NCBI GenBank assembly: GCA_949291375.1
Contig: CASEVI010000003.1
Location: 14,224 to 78,223 of the forward strand
Length of the DNA stretch: 64,000 nucleotides
DNA from: an uncultured bacterium
Lineage (GTDB): Bacteria; Bacillota_I; Bacilli_A; RFN20; CAG-826
Direction of reading: 5' to 3'
The notes under the pieces are model-generated. The model was not told the origin of the DNA. It did no database searches and saw nothing but the letters and a program-made list of their open reading frames with translations. Below, in pieces: positions 19,583 to 44,480 of this stretch. The translations under genes and the position numbers were made by a program. The stretch's first letter is position 1. Each line of letters begins with the position of its first letter.

Positions 19583-19657
19583 TTTTTAAACTGGTTGCAG
19601 AGGTTGGAATTGAACCAACGACCTTACGCTAACGAAACGCAAATGCTACCACTACAC
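19583..19657 (-). tRNA. phage-encoded tRNA, anticodon probably CGU (Thr), with a C1xA72 mismatch
   Basis: Hand-folded cloverleaf: acceptor CGCAGAG/CTCTGCA, D-loop AGTGGTA, anticodon stem TGCGT/GCGTA with loop TTCGTTA, T-arm GTTGG-TTCAATT-CCAAC, then ACCA. Confidence 0.6.
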
Positions 19658-19708
19658 CACTCTGCGATATGGTCCCCTTTTTGAATAGAAGGGGAAAACT
19701 ATTAATTA

Positions 19709-26252: not shown

Positions 26253-27019
26253 ACTTTTGCACTAATACAAGAGAGTTTATTTGTCAAGTGGGAAATATTT
26301 TAAATTGACAACAGTAAGAATTGAAAAATTAGGAAAAATTGTAATGGGACTAAATTTATATAATTGTGCCCCCTAGTCATTTTAGGATAGGGGTGGGGGT
26401 GTATAAAGACATGATAAAAATCCCTATATTATGGGCTTAATAATCATTAATATTGACTATATTTTCACATAAAAATGGACATTAATATATAAAAAATGCG
26501 ATAAATACCGATATGTTGGTATTCTTAAAAGAATATTAACCACTAATTATAATTTTGATTTTTTATTTTAATTGTATTTATTTAACAATTGACTATTTAT
26601 TATAACAATAAAAATATAGTTTCTTTTTAATATAACTATTTTTTAATATAACTATAATTATTAATACATATTTTATTTTTATCTTAAATAAGAATATTTT
26701 CGTTTTAATTATATTTACATCTAATTTAACTAATTCATTTTATTAATTATATAAATTTAATTTATTAAATATGTCTTAATTATAACAATAATATATAAAA
26801 TAATTATTAGTTATAACTTATATTATTCGGTTTATTTATAATTTGATTGTTAATTATAACGTTTAGTAATGAGAAAAAATTTTTAATTGACTATTTTAAT
26901 ACCGAAAATTTTTACACTGTCAAAAAAGTAAAGAGTAATTAGTATAAGGGTGAAAGTTAAGTTTTCAAGCTTTCCTTACTTGGACACTTAGAGCCAAGAA
27001 GATTTGGGGGTTATAAACC
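26253..27019. promoter_or_regulatory. 767-bp AT-rich divergent control region with a G-rich palindrome and repeated TTATAAC / TAATATAACTAT motifs
   Basis: CCCCTA-12nt-TAGGGGTGGGGGTG at 26381-26403; direct repeat taatataactat x2 at 26626-26660; four ATTATAAC-like copies at 26598-26860. Confidence 0.6.
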
Positions 27020-27499
27020 ATGAAAGAAAACAAAAATGGCACAATTACATTAACAAAAGCCGAATTATTAGAATTTATTCAAGAGAGTATTAAAAAACAA
27101 ACTAGCAAACAACAACCACTTTTTAGCCAAGAAGACATAATCAAAAACGCTAAAAAAAATTACATCAAGTTTTTAACAAGTCAAAACTTTCAAGTAGCAA
27201 GTTATAACGACTTATTTACATTACTTGAAAATAAAGTCTTAAATAGCAAAAAGTTTTGCGGTGTTGAAAAAGACATGTTAGACATTGTTAATTATGCTTT
27301 AAAAAACGATTACAAAGCACTTTTAGATGGTGCAAAAAAAGATTTTGTTAAACATTGTCGCTATCAAGTTTCTTTTAAGAAACTAGATAAAGAGCAATGG
27401 TTAGCAATAGATAACAACAATGTTTGTTATATCAAGCAAGTTAAAGACAATAAAGTCAAAATCATCGAAAAATCAATAAATGATTTCTTAGGGGCTTAA
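27020..27499 (+). CDS. hypothetical early protein (159 aa)
   Basis: ORF with GGGGG RBS. Confidence 0.55.
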   Translation: MKENKNGTITLTKAELLEFIQESIKKQTSKQQPLFSQEDIIKNAKKNYIKFLTSQNFQVASYNDLFTLLENKVLNSKKFCGVEKDMLDIVNYALKNDYKALLDGAKKDFVKHCRYQVSFKKLDKEQWLAIDNNNVCYIKQVKDNKVKIIEKSINDFLGA

Positions 27500-27501
27500 C
27501 T

Positions 27502-27627
27502 ATGAAAAAATATTACATTACTTTACACGGCATAAAAATAGCCGTTTATGATACATATAATCAAGCAATTGAAAGTTTAAAATATTTTCAAGAGATTAAC
27601 AAAAATTATCAATTAAAAGCACTATAA
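27502..27627 (+). CDS. small ORF (41 aa) followed by a terminator
   Basis: ATG 2 nt after the upstream stop; terminator AAGCACT-ataaaa-AGTGCTTTTTTT at 27609-27636. Confidence 0.25.
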   Translation: MKKYYITLHGIKIAVYDTYNQAIESLKYFQEINKNYQLKAL

Positions 27628-27824
27628 AAAGTGCTTTTTTTATATGTTGTTTTAATTTTAAAGTGCTTGTTAAATTACAAGTGCTTTTTATTTAGCGTTT
27701 AAACGCTTAAATTTAAACGATTTTATTAATGGTGCTATATTTATACCATTTTTTAGTTTTTGTTTAAATATGAGCATTTAAAACGCATTTATGAACGTTT
27801 CTTAAAATTATGGGGGTTTAAAAA

Positions 27825-28802
27825 ATGAAAGACAAGAAACAACTAAAAATTTTTAACATGATTAATGACCAGATTTTAGAGTGCTTAAAAAATGATAGAT
27901 TTCCAGGCATTGCACCAAGTATCAAACTACAAGATAGTTATTTTGATTTTGCATTTAACTATTTTAGTGAAAGACCATACACGGGCGTGAATAAGATATT
28001 TTTAAAGCCTGGTGCTTATGTTTGTTTTAGTCAATTAAAAGAACACGGCTTAAAACTTAAAGAAACACACCAAACATATAGAGCTTTTCAATCATGGTTC
28101 AAGACATGGTTAAAAATAAAAACGGAAGATGGCGAGCAAATAATACCAAAAGACATCTATGAAAAAAACGGTATGCAAAACGAAATCATAGACACGTTAA
28201 TTAGTTGCACATATTCATACCAAATCGTTTTTAACATCGAAGATATTGAAAATCTTCCAGAAAGAAAACTAAAGACGGGCAAAAAGACACCATTCGTTTT
28301 AGTTGAAAGTAGCGAGAATAGAAATCCACTCTGCGATTTATTCTTAAATGCATACGTTAAACGAGAAAAGATAAACGTATATAAGGGCGAAAATTCTTAC
28401 TATGACCCTAAACACGATGAAATCACATTGAAAGATTTCACAACATTTAAAAATGCAAACGAATTTTATGAACAATACTTTCATGAGTGCGCTCATTCAA
28501 CAGGTGCTTATACACGACTTAATAGAAAGTCAATTGTTGAAAGTCAAGCACGATTTGGAAGTGGCGAATATAACCTAGAAGAAATTGTCGCAGAAACATG
28601 CGCAATGTATTCGCTTAAAGAAATGGGAATGCTCACAAATGCACAAGTAAATAATTGCATTGCTTATATCAAAGGCTATTGGCAAACCGAAGAGGCTCAA
28701 AAAGAAATCAAGAAAGACCCTAGCGTATTAGCAAAAGCATTAACAAATGCAGAAAGAGCATTTAATTACATTTTCAAAAAGGAGCGTTATGCAAAAGATT
28801 AA
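27825..28802 (+). CDS. ArdC-like anti-restriction protein (N-terminal ssDNA-binding region plus C-terminal zincin-like HExxH)
   Basis: C-terminus YFHECAHSTGAYTRLNRK...EYNLEEIVAETCAMYSLKEMGM matches the ArdC motif HE.AHSTGH..RLNR; N-terminus ERPYTGVNKIFL. Confidence 0.7.
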   Translation: MKDKKQLKIFNMINDQILECLKNDRFPGIAPSIKLQDSYFDFAFNYFSERPYTGVNKIFLKPGAYVCFSQLKEHGLKLKETHQTYRAFQSWFKTWLKIKTEDGEQIIPKDIYEKNGMQNEIIDTLISCTYSYQIVFNIEDIENLPERKLKTGKKTPFVLVESSENRNPLCDLFLNAYVKREKINVYKGENSYYDPKHDEITLKDFTTFKNANEFYEQYFHECAHSTGAYTRLNRKSIVESQARFGSGEYNLEEIVAETCAMYSLKEMGMLTNAQVNNCIAYIKGYWQTEEAQKEIKKDPSVLAKALTNAERAFNYIFKKERYAKD

Positions 28803-29013
28803 AGATGTGAAAAGAAAAATTCGTGTTTATTTATATAATCGCAAAAAGAAAAAATGTGAGTTAAATGATTTAACTCAAAGACAATACAAAAAATATTCAA
28901 AGCAAGGTGTCGTAATTAGTAAATACGAGCCTACTTGTGAAACTTTTTTAATGGATACAAACGATAAATTTTTACTAGATAATTACGACAAATATGGGAG
29001 GAAAAAACAATGA
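28789..29013 (+). CDS. small basic protein (74 aa)
   Basis: AAGGAG RBS before the ATG at 28789. Confidence 0.45.
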   Translation: MQKIKDVKRKIRVYLYNRKKKKCELNDLTQRQYKKYSKQGVVISKYEPTCETFLMDTNDKFLLDNYDKYGRKKQ

Positions 29014-29037
29014 ATATCGTAATGGTTTATAACAAGA

Positions 29038-29068
29038 AAACGGGCAAAAAAAAGCCCGTTTTAATTAA
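29038..29068 (+). terminator. rho-independent terminator
   Basis: AAACGGGC-aaaaaaaa-GCCCGTTT followed by TTAATT. Confidence 0.65.
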
Positions 29069-29133
29069 GTCTTTACACGATTATTTACGTGTTGAAAGAA
29101 ATAGAAATTTAATAATTTTAAGGGGCAATTAAT

Positions 29134-30165
29134 ATGGGAAAAATTAAAATTAACATTTACAACACAAACGCAATTGTTTTAAACGAATTAATGAAACAAA
29201 ACGCAGTCGAAACAACCGAACAATTCGATGAAGTTGAAGTTGATGAAGATACTTATAACGAAATAATGCAAGAACAAGAAGGCGAAAATAAACAAGAGCA
29301 AAAAGTTGAATCAAAAACTTCAAAAAAGAAAAAGCAAGAAAGTGAAGAAGAGCAACAAGAAGAAAAACCAAAACAAAAAATGGACACTTCTACTTCTCTT
29401 TACATCAAACCTAAATGTTACGACCACGTTAAGAATTTACTTAATGCTGGATTAATACCATTACTAGTAGGTCAAGCAGGTGTAGGCAAAACAGAAATGG
29501 CTATTAATTTAGCGAAAGATTTAGGGCTTAACTTTTATAGTGAAGCACAAATTACCGACCCATATACAATTAAGGGCTATATGGACGCAAACGGCAAATA
29601 TGTTGAAAGCAATTTCTTTAAGGCTTATACCGAAGGTGGTTTATTCTTACTTGATGAAATAGACGCATCTGATCCAAACGCTTTAGTTGCAATGAACCAA
29701 GCAATGGCTAATAGTTGTTATTCATTCCCACACGGTGTTTTTAAGAAGCATAAAGATTTCCATTGTATTGCAACAGCAAATACTTTTGGCGATGGTGCTT
29801 CAATGGAATATGTTGGAAGGAACCAACTCGACACAGCAACCTTGAATCGTATGTGGACAACTATTGTTGAACCAGATAGCAAAGTCGAGAAAAAACTTTC
29901 AAAAGATACTGATTTAATTGCTTTCTTGCAAGACATTAGAAAAGTATGCAACCAATTAGAAAATCACGTAATTATTTCTTATCGTTCATTTATTGCATTA
30001 AACAAAATGAATGAGATTGAACCAGACAACTTAGTTGTCAATATAAAAGAATGTTTGTTCCCAAATTTAAGCAAACAAGACATCGCTCAAATATTTAATA
30101 ATTGTTGCTTTAGCGATAATAAATATTATCAAGCATTAAAAAAATTAGGGGGTTATGCAAAATGA
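29134..30165 (+). CDS. AAA+ ATPase, MoxR / AAA_5-like, with an acidic low-complexity N-terminus
   Basis: Walker A LLVGQAGVGKTEMA; Walker B LFLLDEIDAS; sensor CIATANTFG. Confidence 0.75.
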   Translation: MGKIKINIYNTNAIVLNELMKQNAVETTEQFDEVEVDEDTYNEIMQEQEGENKQEQKVESKTSKKKKQESEEEQQEEKPKQKMDTSTSLYIKPKCYDHVKNLLNAGLIPLLVGQAGVGKTEMAINLAKDLGLNFYSEAQITDPYTIKGYMDANGKYVESNFFKAYTEGGLFLLDEIDASDPNALVAMNQAMANSCYSFPHGVFKKHKDFHCIATANTFGDGASMEYVGRNQLDTATLNRMWTTIVEPDSKVEKKLSKDTDLIAFLQDIRKVCNQLENHVIISYRSFIALNKMNEIEPDNLVVNIKECLFPNLSKQDIAQIFNNCCFSDNKYYQALKKLGGYAK

Positions 30166-30980
30166 GACAATTCAACGATATAAATAACAAATGCTCTTTA
30201 AGAATTTACGATAATATCGGCGATTTTATAGAAAACATTAATAAAAGCGAAACAAAAAATATATATTTTGACATGTATTGCACTATTCAAAATATTAGCA
30301 CTCAAGATATGATTAATAACTCATATCTTGGGGATAAAAACCTTGCTTCAAAAATTAATAAACAAGTTGATATTGCTTCAAAAGAATTATCTACTGGAAT
30401 TGTCAATAGAAACAAATTACAAAACAGTTTTTATGGGTCAAAAGTGAACGTTCCTAAATATACAATGGGTCTTCCAGATAGTATGTATCGCTTTAAAAAA
30501 CAAGAAATAAATCAAAAAATATTAAACGTGTTAATTGATATTGGCTATCCTTGGAAAGTCAGCAATGAAGATGCAGAAAGAAAAATGATAGAAATATTTT
30601 CTTACATTACTTCACTTGAACAAAAAGGTTATCGAATACAATTAAATGTATCACACTTGGTTTACACAAATAATCAAGTTATGTTTGATAAAATCGGTAT
30701 AATAATACCTCTCAAAAAACCAAGCGAAAGATTAAACCTTATGCGTTTTATAACTATCTGTTGTAATCCAAAATTCTTTAGAACATTAATGTTTGCAGAA
30801 CTTAGAGAATACTGGCAAAACAAAGTTGCGAATTTAGGTTATGCAATGTGGTTGAATGAAAACTATTACTCAAAGTTTTTAAATGAGCTAGTAGCACCAA
30901 AACTTTACTCAAAGGAAGACAACCTTATAGCTCTTAATTATCATTCTGATTTAAAACAAGCATTTAGTAAATACTTATAG
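30162..30980 (+). CDS. partner protein of the AAA+ ATPase (272 aa, unknown fold, no obvious MIDAS)
   Basis: ATGA start/stop overlap with the upstream gene (translational coupling). Confidence 0.6.
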   Translation: MRQFNDINNKCSLRIYDNIGDFIENINKSETKNIYFDMYCTIQNISTQDMINNSYLGDKNLASKINKQVDIASKELSTGIVNRNKLQNSFYGSKVNVPKYTMGLPDSMYRFKKQEINQKILNVLIDIGYPWKVSNEDAERKMIEIFSYITSLEQKGYRIQLNVSHLVYTNNQVMFDKIGIIIPLKKPSERLNLMRFITICCNPKFFRTLMFAELREYWQNKVANLGYAMWLNENYYSKFLNELVAPKLYSKEDNLIALNYHSDLKQAFSKYL

Positions 30981-30991
30981 GAGGCTTTTAA

Positions 30992-31240
30992 ATGAACAAC
31001 ACAAGAGAAAAGATTTTAATAATGAGAAATTATTTAAAAGGCTGGAGCGATAAATACTCTAGCCTTTTCATTAAGCGTAGAAAGAATATTATTTATTACA
31101 AAAATCCAAACGGCTTAATGAAATTAACAATTGCTGAATTTAACGAATTATTTAACGATTTAGCAAAAGAAATTTATCAAGAAGACTTATCAACCAAGTA
31201 TTTAAAAATATTTGAAAAAATAGGCTATAAAGCAAAATAA
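30992..31240 (+). CDS. small early protein (82 aa)
   Basis: GGAGG RBS. Confidence 0.55.
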   Translation: MNNTREKILIMRNYLKGWSDKYSSLFIKRRKNIIYYKNPNGLMKLTIAEFNELFNDLAKEIYQEDLSTKYLKIFEKIGYKAK

Positions 31241-31253
31241 AAAGGGAGAATTT

Positions 31254-31466
31254 ATGAAACAATTAACAATTAACGACTTATTTAAACTTTGCAGACAAGA
31301 AATTGCAAAAGGAAACGGAGATAGAAGAATTTATACTGCCGATGATGATGAAGGGAATGGCTATCATGGAATTTATTATGCGTTCACTGAATTTAGTCAA
31401 GAAGATTGCGAAAATTCTTATGGTCTTGAAGACGAAAATGCTAAAGAAATAATTATTTTAGATTAA
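31254..31466 (+). CDS. small acidic protein (70 aa)
   Basis: GGGAGA RBS; D/E-rich. Confidence 0.55.
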   Translation: MKQLTINDLFKLCRQEIAKGNGDRRIYTADDDEGNGYHGIYYAFTEFSQEDCENSYGLEDENAKEIIILD

Positions 31467-31481
31467 AAAGAGAGTTGATTT

Positions 31482-31727
31482 ATGAAATTTTTTGAAACAG
31501 ATTTACATTATAAGGAAATTGAAGAACTAGAAAAACAAGGCTACAAAGTTTATCAAAGAAGAGATAATTGGGGTTATGAAAATGACACAATAGAAAAATG
31601 GGTTTTAGTTAATCATTTTAGTGAAATTGTTACAAAAGAAAATATTGATTTTGGAAAAGATAGATATATTAACTATGCTCAATTTGTAAGAAATAACGAA
31701 GAAGTTTTTAGTTTAAACGACTTATAG
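31482..31727 (+). CDS. small protein (81 aa)
   Basis: AGAGAG RBS. Confidence 0.55.
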   Translation: MKFFETDLHYKEIEELEKQGYKVYQRRDNWGYENDTIEKWVLVNHFSEIVTKENIDFGKDRYINYAQFVRNNEEVFSLNDL

Positions 31728-31737
31728 TGGGGAAGAT

Positions 31738-31998
31738 ATGACAAAAAGAGATTTTAATAAAGAATTATGTGATGAACTTGTTGGAAGAGGAATTTTAACT
31801 ACTCGAGAAGAATTACTTGATTATGTTAAATATTGCATTGATGAAGATTTTTTACCTACTGCCAGTCACATTTTGGAAGAATTAAGTCTTTCAAGTGCAG
31901 ATTATTTTTTAACTGATTATTCAACTGGTTGTTGCTCAATCAATGATATACGCACAAAGGATGATATTCTTTCTTTTTGCGACATTGAATTATTTTAG
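31738..31998 (+). CDS. small acidic protein (86 aa)
   Basis: GGGGAAG RBS; D/E-rich. Confidence 0.55.
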   Translation: MTKRDFNKELCDELVGRGILTTREELLDYVKYCIDEDFLPTASHILEELSLSSADYFLTDYSTGCCSINDIRTKDDILSFCDIELF

Positions 31999-32011
31999 AA
32001 AGGAGATATAA

Positions 32012-32236
32012 ATGAAAGAACAATTATATAAATGTGTAGCTGATTTTGAAGATGGCAATTGGTGTGTTGGCACTACCCAAACAATTGAAGAGTGGCGAAC
32101 AAATGCTCTTATGTGGGCAGATAGTGATGGTTTTGATGGCGTGATTAAAACTCTAAAAAAACTAAACGGAAAAGAATTAATCGATTTTATTCAAGATTTT
32201 TGGCAAATTAGAATTGTCGAAGTTAAAGGAGAATAA
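32012..32236 (+). CDS. small acidic protein (74 aa)
   Basis: AAGGAGA RBS. Confidence 0.55.
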   Translation: MKEQLYKCVADFEDGNWCVGTTQTIEEWRTNALMWADSDGFDGVIKTLKKLNGKELIDFIQDFWQIRIVEVKGE

Positions 32237-32239
32237 GCT

Positions 32240-32530
32240 ATGGAAATTAAATTAATAAAAAAATACGATTTAGCAACTTATATAAGTAATATTGATTATT
32301 TTTACGATCGATATTGTGGAGAAAATAATCTTCCTTGTTATCAGTTATATTTAAACTTATTCAAAATAATATCAAAAAATTTGTTTAGAGAATTTATCGA
32401 ATATGTTGAAGATTTATTAAATAATAACTACCAACAAAAAAGTTTCGATGAAGATGATTTTATCGATTTTCTTATAAATGCATCTGATGATCTTATTGAT
32501 TTAAAAAAAAGCACCAACATTTTAAGTTAG
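32240..32530 (+). CDS. small acidic protein (96 aa)
   Basis: AAGGAGA RBS; D/E-rich C-terminus. Confidence 0.55.
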   Translation: MEIKLIKKYDLATYISNIDYFYDRYCGENNLPCYQLYLNLFKIISKNLFREFIEYVEDLLNNNYQQKSFDEDDFIDFLINASDDLIDLKKSTNILS

Positions 32531-32596
32531 TGCTTTTCTTGTTAGTGCTTATTTTAAGCATAATCATTATAGCACAATGGTTTATTCCGTTGTGCT
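32513..32596 (+). terminator. two consecutive plus-strand terminators ending the rightward early block
   Basis: AAGCAC-15nt-GTGCTTTTCTT, and ATAGCACAA-12nt-TTGTGCTAT followed by T8. Confidence 0.65.
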
Positions 32597-32779
32597 ATTT
32601 TTTTTGTCTAAAATTTCTATTAATTGACTAAACTCACTAATCAACGAACCTTGAAAATATTTTATTTGATTTTTGCTAACTGCCATATTTTCATTACTCG
32701 TATTCATAAATTCTAGTAAGTATAATAAATCGGTTTTAATTGCGTTTTTTAAACTTTCTAATCTTTCATCATCACTCAT
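32582..32779 (-). CDS. small acidic protein (65 aa)
   Basis: Last ORF of the leftward early operon. Confidence 0.45.
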   Translation of the reverse strand: MSDDERLESLKNAIKTDLLYLLEFMNTSNENMAVSKNQIKYFQGSLISEFSQLIEILDKKNSTTE

Positions 32780-35835: not shown

Positions 35836-36252
35836 TTAGTCATCTAACTCTAACTCCTTTAAAGTATAATAATGATTTAATTCAAGATTATTAAAAAGTT
35901 CTCTATCATTAAAAGAAAAACGACATTTAACTATATTCTTTTCACTCTCAAAACAAAGATAATATAAACGAGTCAATTCATCATATTCAATTTTAATAAG
36001 CTCTATTCCTCTATTTTTCATAAACTTTAAAACGCCCTTAATAAGTTCTTTTTCATCTTTCCTTAATAATGGTTCCTCATAAATTTCCCAATTATCACAA
36101 GTAAAATCATATCGATTAAAGTTATAATCTTTGCAGGTATCATTGTCGTAAATATGTATACCCTTTAATTCGATATAATGTTTTGGGTTCCAAAAAGTTC
36201 TTCTTATCTTTTTGCCTTCTCTTAATGCTGGTAATACTTCTTCAAATTTCAT
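35836..36252 (-). CDS. hypothetical protein (138 aa)
   Basis: ORF. Confidence 0.45.
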   Translation of the reverse strand: MKFEEVLPALREGKKIRRTFWNPKHYIELKGIHIYDNDTCKDYNFNRYDFTCDNWEIYEEPLLRKDEKELIKGVLKFMKNRGIELIKIEYDELTRLYYLCFESEKNIVKCRFSFNDRELFNNLELNHYYTLKELELDD

Positions 36253-43370: not shown

Positions 43371-44480
43371 ATGGCTGTATTATTTGATAAAAAATCAAAA
43401 ACTTATTATGTAGACTCAAAAATTAAAAGAGCAGATGGAAGTTGGTATCATTTTAAGTATAAAGAAATTAACAACCAAGACTTCAAAAGTAAGCGATACG
43501 TTCAATCTATCGAAGCAGAAATTATTAGAAAAAAGAAAGTTGAAATTTGTTATCAACCATCATCAAAAGTTCAAAATGTTAGTGATTTAATCGAAAGTTA
43601 TATTAATTATCGAGAGAACGAACTTGCTTTCAACACAAAAGCAAACAATTTTTTAAGGGCTAAAAAATATATCGAGCCTTATTTTGAAAACTCTTTGTTA
43701 AAACTTTTTAATCCAGCTAATTTAGCCTCGTTTAGAATTTATCTTTCTAGCTTAAAGATTTGCGCTGAATATATGAATAATATAATTGCTATCACTCGTG
43801 ATTTAATTCGTTATGCAAGAATACTTGGTTTAATCAATAGCGATCAAAAAGATGATTGTCTTGTTCCTTTAATTCCTATCAAGAAAAAAGTTAATGAAGA
43901 AAAAGAAGCGAGGAATAAATATACTTCACTCAATGATTTAACGAAACTTCTTTCTGTAATCGATAATAAAAACGACTATGATATTTTAAAACTTTTATAT
44001 TTTAGTGGTCTTCGTCTTGGAGAGTTTTTAGGTATCGAAGTTAATGACATTGAGTTTAGTGATGATTTTGCAATTATCACAATTAAAAGACAAAGATTGA
44101 AAAATGGAGCATATACTAACCAATTAAAAACTTCTGCTTCTTATAAAAAAATAGCCTTTGCAAAAACAAATGCCGAAATTTTAAAAGAATATATTAAGCG
44201 AAACGATTTCAAAGAATACGATAAAATTTTCCCATTCAGTGGTGAGACTTTAAGAAAAAAATTAGATAAATATTCTAAACTCGCTAATCTTCCACACAAT
44301 ACTCTTCATGGCTATGGAAGAAAATCAATTAACACTGAACTTTATAAGGCTGGTGCTGACACAAAAGTTAGAACCACACTTTTAGGTCAAATTTCAATGT
44401 CGGTAAATGAGAACAATTATGTTGATAATCAAAGTGCTTTTGATAAGGGCTTAGATTTTATAAAATCAATTTCAGAGTAG
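43371..44480 (+). CDS. int: tyrosine-type site-specific integrase
   Basis: LLYFSGLRLGEFLGIEVNDIE (Arg box); C-terminal HTLHGYGRKS...LLGQ with Tyr; 369 aa. Confidence 0.75.
   Translation: MAVLFDKKSKTYYVDSKIKRADGSWYHFKYKEINNQDFKSKRYVQSIEAEIIRKKKVEICYQPSSKVQNVSDLIESYINYRENELAFNTKANNFLRAKKYIEPYFENSLLKLFNPANLASFRIYLSSLKICAEYMNNIIAITRDLIRYARILGLINSDQKDDCLVPLIPIKKKVNEEKEARNKYTSLNDLTKLLSVIDNKNDYDILKLLYFSGLRLGEFLGIEVNDIEFSDDFAIITIKRQRLKNGAYTNQLKTSASYKKIAFAKTNAEILKEYIKRNDFKEYDKIFPFSGETLRKKLDKYSKLANLPHNTLHGYGRKSINTELYKAGADTKVRTTLLGQISMSVNENNYVDNQSAFDKGLDFIKSISE

What the first reader, a model, noticed from the sequence alone, without database searches (positions are those of the whole stretch)
27825..32530. 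Early rightward block next to the packaging region: ArdC-like anti-restriction protein, coupled AAA+ (MoxR-like) ATPase with unknown partner, and six small acidic proteins
The protein at 27825-28802 has the ArdC-type zincin motif (HECAHSTGAYTRLNRK...EEIVAETCAMY). It is followed by an AAA_5/MoxR-like ATPase (29134-30165), translationally coupled through an ATGA overlap to a 272-aa protein with no recognisable VWA/MIDAS, which is unusual for MoxR partners. After that come six tightly packed 70-96 aa, mostly acidic, proteins with individual strong RBSs.

This looks like an anti-defence (counter-restriction / DNA-mimic) island positioned beside the putative pac region. That placement would be analogous to plasmid leading regions or T5 pre-early genes. 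The ATPase pair could alternatively be a defence moron.
Basis: partly seen in the sequence, partly recalled or inferred. Interest (0 to 1): 0.7.

Follow-up and report, generated by a model that had tools for sequence, protein, structure and literature searches.

The report
Prophage ArdC operon with cryptic MoxR–VWA pair
A prophage operon combines a plasmid-type ArdC anti-restriction protein with a widespread phage ATPase, whose "unknown" partner looks like a stripped-down VWA protein; the parts are mostly of known kinds, and the small acidic proteins remain orphans of unknown function.

Summary
The ATGA overlap is real, each small gene has an RBS, and five of the six small proteins are acidic.

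The window is a bacterial chromosome with a roughly 44-kb prophage. The block is a separately terminated rightward operon lying between the leftward packaging genes and the leftward replication/recombination genes.

- **27825-28802: a true ArdC-family protein.** It matches MPTase-PolyVal at 4.8e-19, has HECAH220 and EEIVAE252, matches PDB ArdC at 3e-7, and aligns over its full length to about 2,400 plasmid records but only 52 phage records.
- **The ATPase belongs to the AAA_5 / MoxR / CobS / NorQ / midasin clade.**
- **The pair is an old, autonomous phage module.** The two genes are adjacent in 40 of 41 viral loci, in both orders. It occurs in Staphylococcus phage K, Listeria P100-like phages and mycobacteriophages. 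The family has at least 8,353 clusters and no PADLOC match, so it is not a defence moron.
- **One small protein is LPD28,** a domain reported to associate with MPTase.
- **The other small proteins are near-orphans,** and the set varies between sister prophages.

The anti-defence-island reading is partly supported.

The parts
27020..27627 (+). Upstream mini-unit: a 159-aa basic protein (27020-27499, PHROG 30107, function unknown) and a 41-aa ORF (27502-27627). It is separated from the ArdC operon by two hairpin terminators.
   Evidence: The L051 counterpart is only 31% identical.
27615..27687 (+). Two terminator-like hairpins (27615-27638 and 27660-27687), followed by a promoter-like site at 27712-27741 (TTTAAA-18-TATATT with a TG).
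   Evidence: consensus scans only
27825..28802 (+). ArdC-family protein: an N-terminal ArdC-N-like region plus a C-terminal zincin MPTase (HECAH at 220-224, EEIVAE at 252-257).
   Evidence: Pfam PF18818 at 4.8e-19 and ArdcN at 0.025. PHROG 7245 at 4e-34 over residues 9-319. PDB ArdC 6i89 at 3e-7. Full-length tblastn matches to plasmid ArdC/DUF1738 proteins. dN/dS 0.16 against L051.
28789..29132 (+). Two small, very basic ORFs: 74 aa (pI 9.8) and 40 aa (pI 10.8). The second contains the hairpin AAAACGGGC-N8-GCCCGTTTT at 29037-29062, so this stretch may be partly regulatory.
   Evidence: Both ORFs are conserved at 85-86% amino-acid identity in L051.
29134..30165 (+). AAA_5 (MoxR/CobS/NorQ/midasin-clade) ATPase. 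Residues 1-95 form a non-conserved charged extension. Walker A is at 113-120 and Walker B at 172-177.
   Evidence: Pfam AAA_5 at 3.8e-11. PHROG 249 at 2.6e-44. The family profile against the PDB hits midasin AAA domains (36 and 33 bits per domain), CobS (40.6 bits), CbbQ (37.3) and NorQ (34.6). dN/dS 0.07.
30162..30980 (+). DUF7192 protein, the translationally coupled partner (ATGA overlap). It has a VWA-like fold with a degenerate MIDAS position (D126-I-G-Y-P130). The conserved loop motif is G92..V97-P98..G103-L-P105-x-S-M108.
30992..31240 (+). 82-aa basic protein (pI 9.7), no family match. It is conserved at 82% in sister prophages.
   Evidence: dN/dS 0.26.
31254..31466 (+). 70-aa acidic protein (pI 4.3), near-orphan. 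It is absent from sister prophage L051.
   Evidence: One relative at 36% identity in IMG/VR.
31482..31727 (+). 81-aa acidic LPD28-domain protein (large polyvalent-protein-associated domain 28).
   Evidence: Pfam PF18843 at 2.3e-7, 30.8 bits against a cut-off of 27. No nonsynonymous change against L051 at dS 0.24. The LPD28-MPTase association is reported in PMC5512222.
31738..32530 (+). Three acidic orphan proteins: 86 aa (31738-31998, pI 4.2), 74 aa (32012-32236, pI 4.6) and 96 aa (32240-32530, pI 4.4). This is the variable tail of the operon.
   Evidence: The 86-aa and 74-aa genes are missing from L051, and the 96-aa protein is only 46% identical there.
32569..32598 (+). Strong hairpin terminator (12-bp stem followed by T8) between the convergent operons. 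It marks the end of the block.

Best explanation
The block is a self-contained rightward operon (about 27.7-32.6 kb) of a temperate tailed prophage in a low-GC bacterium; a sister copy lies in an uncultured Bacilli MAG. It strings together three things of different age and spread.

1. **A plasmid-type ArdC protein.** It has an ssDNA-binding ArdC-N head and a zincin metallopeptidase. By homology it protects incoming or replicating phage DNA from restriction. It probably works with the LPD28 protein encoded 2.7 kb downstream, because LPD28 is otherwise found fused to this peptidase in polyvalent invasion proteins.

2. **An ancient, autonomous phage two-gene machine.** It is an AAA_5 (MoxR/CobS/NorQ/midasin-class) ring ATPase plus DUF7192. 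DUF7192 is a shortened VWA-like protein whose metal-binding MIDAS site has decayed. By analogy with NorQ-NorD, CbbQ-CbbO, CobS-CobT and Rea1, the VWA-like subunit would dock on the ATPase ring and act as the adaptor that holds a target protein, which ATP hydrolysis then remodels. The target is not known. My best guess is a protein complex handled early to mid infection: replication/recombination set-up (about 0.4) or host take-over/counter-defence (about 0.3).

3. **A fast-turnover tail of small, mostly acidic orphan proteins.** These are plausible but unproven inhibitors of host proteins.

Shown: gene anatomy, family memberships, the fold similarity, strict gene linkage, and purifying selection. 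Inferred: ring-adaptor mechanics, timing in this phage, and any target.
For: **Anatomy and transcription-unit limits:**

**Prophage context:**

**ArdC**
- Profile, PHROG and PDB matches.
- Full-length matches in 2,439 plasmid records (1,345 of them conjugative) against 52 phage records.

**LPD28**
- Pfam match above threshold.
- Literature link to MPTase, PMC5512222.
- No nonsynonymous change at dS 0.24.

**The ATPase-DUF7192 pair**
- ATPase clade assignment.
- DUF7192 model: pLDDT 76.7, pTM 0.74.
- BFVD Foldseek hits phage CobT/VWFA proteins at E 7e-5 to 1e-2.
- The two genes are adjacent on the same strand in 40 of 41 IMG/VR loci, 16 in the order ATPase then DUF7192 and 25 in the reverse order; the one exception is a truncated locus.
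- The same pair occurs in Staphylococcus phage A3R/K, an Alteromonas podophage, Listeria LMTA-148 and Mycobacterium phage Lumos.
- The family has 8,353 50%-identity clusters at E<=1e-3.
- dN/dS is 0.07 for the ATPase and 0.15 for DUF7192.
- In phage K the pair is classed early/middle (PMC9241854 supplement).
- A canonical long VWA plus AAA pair sits in the replication module of Thermus phage P23-45.

**Mosaic tail:**
Against: **The VWA assignment rests on predicted structures only.**
- Pfam finds no VWA.
- The A2 family profile finds no VWA protein in PDB sequences.
- hhalign of the family against the P23-45 VWA protein finds nothing.
- Foldseek of a second family member's model (pLDDT 80) against the PDB gave no significant hit; the highest match probability was 0.23, for a TRAP VWA domain.

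**The fold is incomplete and the MIDAS site is lost.**
- Judging by the order of secondary-structure elements, only about the C-terminal 150 residues look VWA-like, and the last two beta-alpha units are missing.
- The MIDAS motif is lost here (DIGYP) and in most relatives, so a classical metal-mediated grip is unlikely.

**Context gives no target.** A census of 150 neighbouring proteins in 28 loci shows no dominant partner family: integrases, HTH regulators, SNF2, D5, lysins and ADP-ribosyl enzymes all appear.

**Expression and activity are untested.** Nothing shows when, or whether, the operon is expressed in this prophage. No activity was tested for ArdC, LPD28 or any small protein.
Confidence: 0.6

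Rival explanations
1. One reading: the whole block is a dedicated anti-defence island. ArdC blocks restriction, the ATPase pair dismantles a host immune complex, and the small acidic proteins are DNA mimics or Acr-like inhibitors. The island is placed so that it enters the cell and is expressed first.
For: - ArdC and LPD28 are both invasion-associated domains.
- The acidic small proteins are orphans and vary between sister prophages.
- In L055 the pair is also the first gene set of the early operon, next to the terminase genes.
- A 2025 preprint reports a phage MoxR ATPase (Bas54 gene 0063) that is required to overcome the defence system DS-28.
- Some neighbours of the pair in other phages are conflict-type enzymes, such as ADP-ribosyltransferase and SprT-like proteins.
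Against: - The pair is deeply conserved, strongly constrained (dN/dS 0.07-0.15) and present in thousands of clusters without ArdC or these small proteins. That is unusual for counter-defence genes.
- No small protein matches ArdA, Ocr or any Acr family.
- Acidity is only moderately above the local background.
- The packaging type, and therefore the first-entering DNA end, is unknown.
- A Tad2-like anti-defence gene lies outside the block.
Confidence: 0.25
2. The ATPase-DUF7192 pair is a replication/recombination accessory, for example a loader or remodeller of the replisome or of recombination proteins. It merely shares an operon with ArdC in this phage.
For: The pair sits among replication genes in several phages:
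- UvrD-like helicase and a primase-like protein in the Alteromonas phage.
- D5 primase-helicase, dUTPase and SNF2 in L046.
- AAA_24, DUF669 and D5 in L055.
- DUF1351 and Lactamase_B in L048.
- The canonical AAA plus VWA pair lies beside DnaB and primase in P23-45.
- Cyanophage CobS lies next to the sliding clamp and clamp loader.

Expression in phage K is early/middle.
Against: - The neighbourhood census shows no consistent replication partner.
- Early regions contain replication genes anyway, so the association is weak.
- In the window the pair is on the opposite strand from the replication operon.
Confidence: 0.3
3. The pair is a virion-assembly chaperone, like the MoxR-VWA pair needed for tail development in Acidianus two-tailed virus and the pair proposed for jumbo phages.
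For: There is literature precedent (PMC7824862). In the window and in L055 the pair lies next to the packaging module.
Against: - It is transcribed divergently from the structural genes.
- It is early/middle, not late, in phage K.
- In most loci it lies in early regions.
Confidence: 0.08
4. The pair is a prophage-encoded defence or superinfection-exclusion moron of the MoxR-vWA conflict-system type.
For: MoxR-vWA conflict systems exist in bacteria (PMC7159879, listed). The block is flanked by terminators, as a moron would be.
Against: - No PADLOC match.
- The same pair is carried by strictly virulent phages such as Kayvirus and Pecentumvirus.
- No effector domain is fused to it or adjacent to it.
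Confidence: 0.04
5. The pair is a viral CobS/CobT cobaltochelatase that boosts vitamin B12 synthesis; the PHROG label is 'porphyrin biosynthesis'.
For: PHROG 249 label. The cobST cluster is widespread in tailed viruses (PMC8651126). There is structural similarity to phage CobT models.
Against: - No NCBIfam CobS equivalog hit.
- The CobS match in the PDB is no better than those to NorQ, CbbQ or single midasin domains.
- The partner is 272 aa with a decayed MIDAS site, whereas phage CobT/VWFA models are about 430-860 aa.
Confidence: 0.03

Closest known systems
ArdC of IncW plasmids R388/pSa (PDB 6i89, 6sna)
   Same: Same two-part layout. The zincin HExxH and the downstream Glu align (HECAH/HEATH, EEIVAE/EELIAE). 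The length is similar (325 vs 297 aa). Thousands of plasmid homologues match over the full length.
   Different: It is encoded by a prophage, whereas ArdC-N is rare in phages (52 of 50,697 records; PMC5512222). Identity is only about 25-29%. The N-terminal domain falls below the Pfam threshold (E 0.025). There is no T4SS to deliver it.
MoxR-class AAA+ / VWA pairs: NorQ-NorD, CbbQ-CbbO, CobS-CobT, RavA-ViaA, and the fused Rea1/midasin (AAA_5 ring plus MIDAS domain)
   Same: An AAA_5 ATPase encoded next to, and translationally coupled with, a VWA-fold partner. The best structural matches of the partner are the VWA/MIDAS domains of exactly these systems.
   Different: The partner is short (about 270-290 aa) and lacks the last beta-alpha units. 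It has an N-terminal helical region and an invariant G..VPNAI.GLP.SM loop. The DxSxS MIDAS motif is lost (2 of 196 relatives). Sequence methods do not detect the similarity.
Phage cobST-like clusters and the Thermus phage P23-45 gp51/gp50 (AAA + VWA) pair
   Same: A two-gene ATPase plus VWA module in the early/replication regions of tailed viruses. The ATPases are homologous (hhalign E 2.5e-5). The same PHROG covers the ATPase.
   Different: Those partners are roughly 430-860 aa and are annotated as VWA/CobT proteins. DUF7192 is a separate, much shorter family.
Staphylococcus phage K / A3R ORF pair (AAA family ATPase plus ORF14-like hypothetical protein)
   Same: Direct homologues: ATPase about 38% and DUF7192 about 28% identical, same gene order, 11-nt spacing. 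Function is unknown there too.
   Different: That is a virulent myovirus of about 140 kb. No ArdC, LPD28 or these small proteins lie nearby.
Polyvalent proteins of phages and conjugative elements (Iyer et al. 2017)
   Same: MPTase-PolyVal, ArdC-N and LPD28 all belong to that domain repertoire, and LPD28 is reported to associate with MPTase.
   Different: Here the domains are separate small genes in one operon rather than one giant injected polypeptide.

Membership tests
ArdC anti-restriction family | C-terminal zincin metallopeptidase with HExxH plus a downstream Glu | tested here: met
   PF18818 at 4.8e-19. HECAH at 220 and EEIVAE at 252 align to ArdC HEATH/EELIAE.
ArdC anti-restriction family | N-terminal ArdC-N (DUF1738) ssDNA-binding domain | tested here: inconclusive
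   Pfam ArdcN scores only E 0.025, 15.2 bits against a cut-off of 22.6. However, PHROG 7245 covers residues 9-319, and tblastn matches cover residues 1-317 of plasmid proteins annotated as DUF1738 or ArdC-like ssDNA-binding.
ArdC anti-restriction family | Relieves restriction of incoming DNA | not testable with these tools
   Needs a restriction-relief assay.
MoxR-type AAA+ / VWA two-component remodellers | AAA+ ATPase of the AAA_5/MoxR clade with intact Walker A and B | tested here: met
   AAA_5 at 3.8e-11. GQAGVGKT at 113 and LLDEID at 172. The family profile hits midasin, CobS, CbbQ and NorQ.
MoxR-type AAA+ / VWA two-component remodellers | Adjacent partner with a VWA fold | tested here: inconclusive
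MoxR-type AAA+ / VWA two-component remodellers | MIDAS motif DxSxS (plus Thr and Asp) in the partner | tested here: not met
   The window protein has D126-I-G-Y-P130. Among 196 relatives, 2 have DxSxS, 15 have NxSxS and 49 have NxSxx.
Aerobic cobaltochelatase CobS/CobT | CobS equivalog and a long CobT with a C-terminal VWA/MIDAS | tested here: not met
   No NCBIfam CobS hit. The CobS match in the PDB is 40.6 bits over a partial region, no better than the matches to NorQ or CbbQ. The partner is 272 aa.
Known anti-phage defence systems (PADLOC) | Match to a defence-system protein model | tested here: not met
   Only a 13.8-bit P-loop match of the ATPase to PDC-S73; nothing for the other nine proteins.
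LPD28 (polyvalent-protein-associated domain 28) | Pfam PF18843 above the gathering score | tested here: met
   30.8 bits against a cut-off of 27, E 2.3e-7, residues 21-67 of the 81-aa protein.
DNA-mimic anti-restriction proteins (Ocr, ArdA) / Acr proteins | Sequence or fold match; dense surface negative charge | tested here: inconclusive
   No Pfam or PHROG match at E<=1 or 0.01. Net charge is -5 to -11 over 70-96 aa.
First-entering 'leading region' / T5 pre-early analogue | Location at the DNA end that enters the cell first | not testable with these tools
   TerL is at most 29% identical to any sequenced phage, so the packaging mode cannot be inferred. The 770-bp AT-rich spacer with repeats at 26253-27019 is only a candidate cos/pac region.

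The most novel reading that the evidence does not exclude
The AAA_5-DUF7192 pair could be a very widespread phage unfoldase. It has at least 8,000 sequence clusters and is carried by the therapeutic phages K and P100. Its pseudo-MIDAS VWA adaptor would capture a host protein complex, such as an immune sensor or effector or a nucleoid or replication factor, for ATP-driven disassembly early in infection. That would be a general, previously unrecognised host-takeover or counter-defence mechanism. Here it would be bundled with ArdC, LPD28 and orphan acidic inhibitors into one 'establishment' operon.
Probability: 0.2. Interest if true: 0.75.

Novelty: new variant of a known kind. Interest (0 to 1): 0.45.

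Why it matters
The ATPase/DUF7192 pair is carried by well-studied and therapeutically used phages (Kayvirus, P100-like Listeria phages, mycobacteriophages). There it is labelled 'porphyrin biosynthesis' plus 'hypothetical protein'.

If DUF7192 is indeed a MIDAS-less VWA-like adaptor, a DUF becomes a testable ring-plus-adaptor hypothesis. It would also argue against the cobalamin label, and it points to simple experiments: co-purification, substrate trapping with a Walker B mutant, and knock-outs.

No paper in the searched library mentions DUF7192.

The ArdC plus LPD28 pairing in a phage also gives a small, tractable version of the 'polyvalent protein' toolkit. The rest of the block is ordinary phage accessory content.

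Tried and rejected
- **DNA similarity of the block to known phages:** none.
- **A concatenate of eight small proteins run by tblastn against phages and plasmids:** no match.
- **IMG/VR scans with single proteins.** There were no relatives for the 86-, 81- and 96-aa proteins or for ArdC. The 70-aa protein had one weak relative, and the 74-aa protein had two partial ones.
- **Word-indexed homologue search for LPD28:** it returned only the 99% identical sister copy, so no useful alignment for structure prediction was available.
- **Cluster look-up:** it gave no names or accessions.
- **Genome-contig scans.** The single-protein scan returned one MAG contig.
- **afdb50 fold library:** unavailable.
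- **Sequence bridges from DUF7192 to VWA:** all three failed (HMM vs PDB, hhalign vs the P23-45 VWA, Pfam on longer family members).
- **The midasin E-value of 3e-33.** I discounted it because it is a sum over several AAA domains. Single domains score 33-36 bits, similar to CobS, CbbQ and NorQ.
- **Packaging type from TerL:** it could not be inferred.
- **Neighbour-domain census around the pair:** no dominant association.
- **Rfam:** no structured RNA in the block.

Full report
**Observation**

The ATPase stop and the start of the 272-aa gene overlap as ATGA at 30162-30165. Each of the six downstream ORFs has a GGAGG-type ribosome-binding site. Five of the six are acidic (pI 4.2-4.8) and the first is basic (pI 9.7). 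Acidic small proteins are also common next door: 5 of 12 in the neighbouring early operon and 7 of 29 elsewhere in the prophage. The run of acidic proteins is therefore suggestive, not exceptional.

**Setting**

The window is a bacterial chromosome (about 28% GC) carrying a prophage.
- A tyrosine integrase lies at 43371-44480, and host genes (M13 peptidase, ABC transporters, MFS, serine dehydratase) follow from about 45 kb.
- To the left of the block, running leftward, are a 92-aa gene at the small-terminase position (no family match), TerL, the portal and structural genes.
- To the right, also running leftward, are DUF1064, SSB, a Tad2-like protein, RecT, DUF1351 and a YqaJ exonuclease.
- The block is therefore an inverted unit between two leftward operons.
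- Terminator-like hairpins at 27615-27687 separate a small upstream unit (159-aa and 41-aa ORFs) from the ArdC gene. A strong hairpin at 32569-32598 closes the block.
- An 86%-identical DUF7192 copy lies in a MAG labelled uncultured Bacilli. Sister prophage copies with 82-100% amino-acid identity in the shared block genes occur in gut-type metagenome assemblies.
- All proteins of the block belong to clusters of only 1-5 members among 15 billion sequences.

**ArdC-like protein (27825-28802)**

- Pfam MPTase-PolyVal matches at 4.8e-19, and PHROG 7245 'anti-restriction protein' matches at 4e-34 over residues 9-319.
- The solved ArdC of plasmid R388 matches at 3e-7, with HECAH aligned to HEATH and EEIVAE to EELIAE.
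- The N-terminal ArdC-N Pfam match is sub-threshold (E 0.025). However, tblastn gives alignments covering 95-98% of the query to plasmid proteins annotated as DUF1738, ArdC-like ssDNA-binding, or ArdC.
- In total 2,439 plasmid records match, 1,345 of them conjugative, against only 52 of 50,697 phage records. This agrees with the published remark that ArdC-N is rare in phage-type systems (PMC5512222).
- dN/dS against the sister prophage is 0.16.

I accept this protein as an ArdC-family member. Its activity is inferred, not shown.

**The ATPase (29134-30165)**

- AAA_5 matches at 3.8e-11. Walker A is at residue 113 and Walker B at 172.
- PHROG 249 ('porphyrin biosynthesis', the CobS-like label) matches at 2.6e-44. 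No NCBIfam CobS model matches.
- A profile of 24 phage homologues hits midasin at 3e-33. That E-value sums several AAA domains, and single domains score 33-36 bits. These scores are comparable to CobS (40.6), CbbQ (37.3) and NorQ (34.6).
- The ATPase therefore belongs to the MoxR/CobS/NorQ/midasin clade without a finer placement.
- Its first 95 residues are a charged, non-conserved extension.

**The partner (30162-30980)**

By sequence it is only Pfam DUF7192 (2e-18) and PHROG 1909. No paper in the searched library mentions DUF7192.

Evidence for a VWA-like fold:
- I built a 37-sequence alignment and obtained an AlphaFold model with pLDDT 76.7 and pTM 0.74.
- Foldseek against predicted viral structures found other DUF7192 proteins first (Gordonia, Mycobacterium and Lactobacillus phages). 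Phage CobT and VWFA proteins followed at E 7e-5 to 1e-2.

Cautions:
- A second model, of a 20%-identical relative (pLDDT 80), gave no significant Foldseek hit in the PDB. The highest match probability was 0.23, for a VWA domain.
- No sequence method links the family to VWA.
- By the order of secondary-structure elements (my inference), only residues of about 120-271 follow the VWA pattern, and the last two beta-alpha units are missing.
- At the position of the MIDAS DxSxS motif the window protein reads D-I-G-Y-P. Among 196 relatives, 2 have DxSxS, 15 have NxSxS and 49 have NxSxx.
- The truly invariant residues lie elsewhere: a G..VPNAI.GLP.SM loop before strand 1, which is modelled with low confidence, and E153, K185, R207 and Y227.

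My reading is that DUF7192 is a shortened, MIDAS-less VWA derivative, with confidence of about 0.75-0.8.

**Linkage and spread of the pair**

- In 41 IMG/VR loci that encode a DUF7192 relative, 40 have the ATPase homologue immediately adjacent on the same strand. The order is ATPase then DUF7192 in 16 and the reverse in 25. The exception is a truncated locus.
- The pair is also present in Staphylococcus phage A3R/K, Alteromonas phage R22Y, Listeria phage LMTA-148 and Mycobacterium phage Lumos.
- An exhaustive profile search finds 8,353 50%-identity clusters at E<=1e-3. Nearly all of the listed top hits are stand-alone proteins of about 250-300 aa.
- ArdC and the small proteins never accompany the pair in those loci.
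- Nothing in PADLOC matches.
- dN/dS is 0.07 for the ATPase and 0.15 for DUF7192.
- In phage K the genes are classed early/middle (supplement of PMC9241854).

Contexts elsewhere are early regions. They lie next to D5 primase-helicases, SNF2, AAA_24, dUTPase, methyltransferases and DUF1351, or directly after the lysis genes or beside the terminase genes. A census of 150 neighbouring proteins shows no dominant partner family.

The pair is thus an old, autonomous phage module. It is not a defence moron, and it is not a bona fide cobalt chelatase.

**How the pair probably works (inference)**

The model is a ring ATPase with a VWA-like adaptor that presents a protein substrate for ATP-driven remodelling, as in NorQ/NorD, CbbQ/CbbO, CobS/CobT and Rea1. 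The target is unknown.

Published precedents point in different directions:
- a virion-assembly chaperone in Acidianus two-tailed virus and in jumbo phages (PMC7824862);
- hijacking of cobalamin synthesis (PMC8651126);
- a MoxR ATPase of phage Bas54 that is needed to overcome a defence system (bioRxiv 10.1101/2025.11.20.689424).

Early/middle timing and early-region location argue against virion assembly. Deep conservation argues against a narrow counter-defence role. I rank the possibilities as replication/establishment first, host take-over or counter-defence second, and virion assembly third.

**Small proteins**

- The 81-aa protein is an LPD28 domain (30.8 bits against a cut-off of 27). 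Iyer et al. report LPD28 as specifically associated with the MPTase domain in polyvalent proteins. Here it shares an operon with an MPTase protein and shows no amino-acid change against the sister prophage at dS 0.24. This is the best single argument that part of the block is an invasion or establishment toolkit.
- The 82-aa basic protein is conserved (82% identity, dN/dS 0.26).
- The 70-, 86- and 74-aa genes are absent from sister prophage L051, and the 96-aa protein is only 46% identical there.
- None of the small proteins has a relative in the phage or plasmid collections.
- Their function remains open, and I could not obtain structures for them.

**Verdict**

ArdC and LPD28 support an establishment or anti-restriction role. 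The 'unusual partner' is explained as a cryptic VWA-like protein. The ATPase pair is a widespread phage module rather than an island-specific or defence element. The pac/T5 analogy cannot be tested here.

The parts are of known kinds. The one new point is the VWA-like, MIDAS-less nature of DUF7192 and its obligate pairing with an AAA_5 ATPase across thousands of phage lineages.

Noticed in passing
window 35836-36252 (- strand): A 138-aa protein with an N-terminal Tad2-like (anti-Thoeris) domain, Pfam PF11195 at E 3.2e-7, 31.2 bits against a cut-off of 25. It lies in the leftward early operon among the SSB, RecT and YqaJ genes.
   Followed up: partly
window 19592-19666 (- strand): A tRNA-Thr(CGU) gene lies inside the prophage structural module.
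   Followed up: no
window 26253-27019: A 770-bp very AT-rich spacer between the divergent 92-aa gene at the small-terminase position and the 159-aa gene. It contains a G-rich island (ccccta...ggggtgggggtg, about 26369-26392), a tandem TTTTAATATAACTAT repeat at 26625-26658, and two copies of AATTGACTATTT 298 bp apart. It is a candidate cos/pac or divergent-promoter region.
   Followed up: partly
L022 about 6980-8040 and L023 about 6020-7080 (IMG/VR contigs): The ATPase homologue is split after ...AVTQEYTLVGQIN by an insert of about 1.05 kb. The insert encodes a LAGLIDADG-type homing endonuclease (YWLGFMYADGYV ... FFDGDGCL), so it is probably a group I intron inside the ATPase gene.
   Followed up: partly
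window 29037-29062: A perfect 9-bp hairpin, AAAACGGGC-N8-GCCCGTTTT, lies inside the 40-aa ORF between ArdC and the ATPase. That ORF may be a regulatory spacer rather than a gene.
   Followed up: no
L061 27112-29624 (Thermus phage P23-45 gp50/gp51): The gene annotated 'ATP-dependent protease' (gp51) is an AAA ATPase homologous to the window ATPase (hhalign E 2.5e-5). It sits directly upstream of a 563-aa VWA protein (gp50), in the same leftward gene block as the DnaB helicase and primase genes.
   Followed up: partly
L055 6862-8813 (ENA metagenome contig, 36 kb): An unrelated phage has the same layout as the window. The ATPase-DUF7192 pair is near the start of the rightward early operon (after two small ORFs), divergent from the terminase and portal genes.
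   Followed up: partly
28 IMG/VR loci around the pair (alignment A5): Neighbours of the pair include two loci each with ADP-ribosyltransferase, ADP-ribosylglycohydrolase, SprT-like zincin, and DUF2828/DUF7788 proteins. These are possible conflict-related companions and were not examined further.
   Followed up: no
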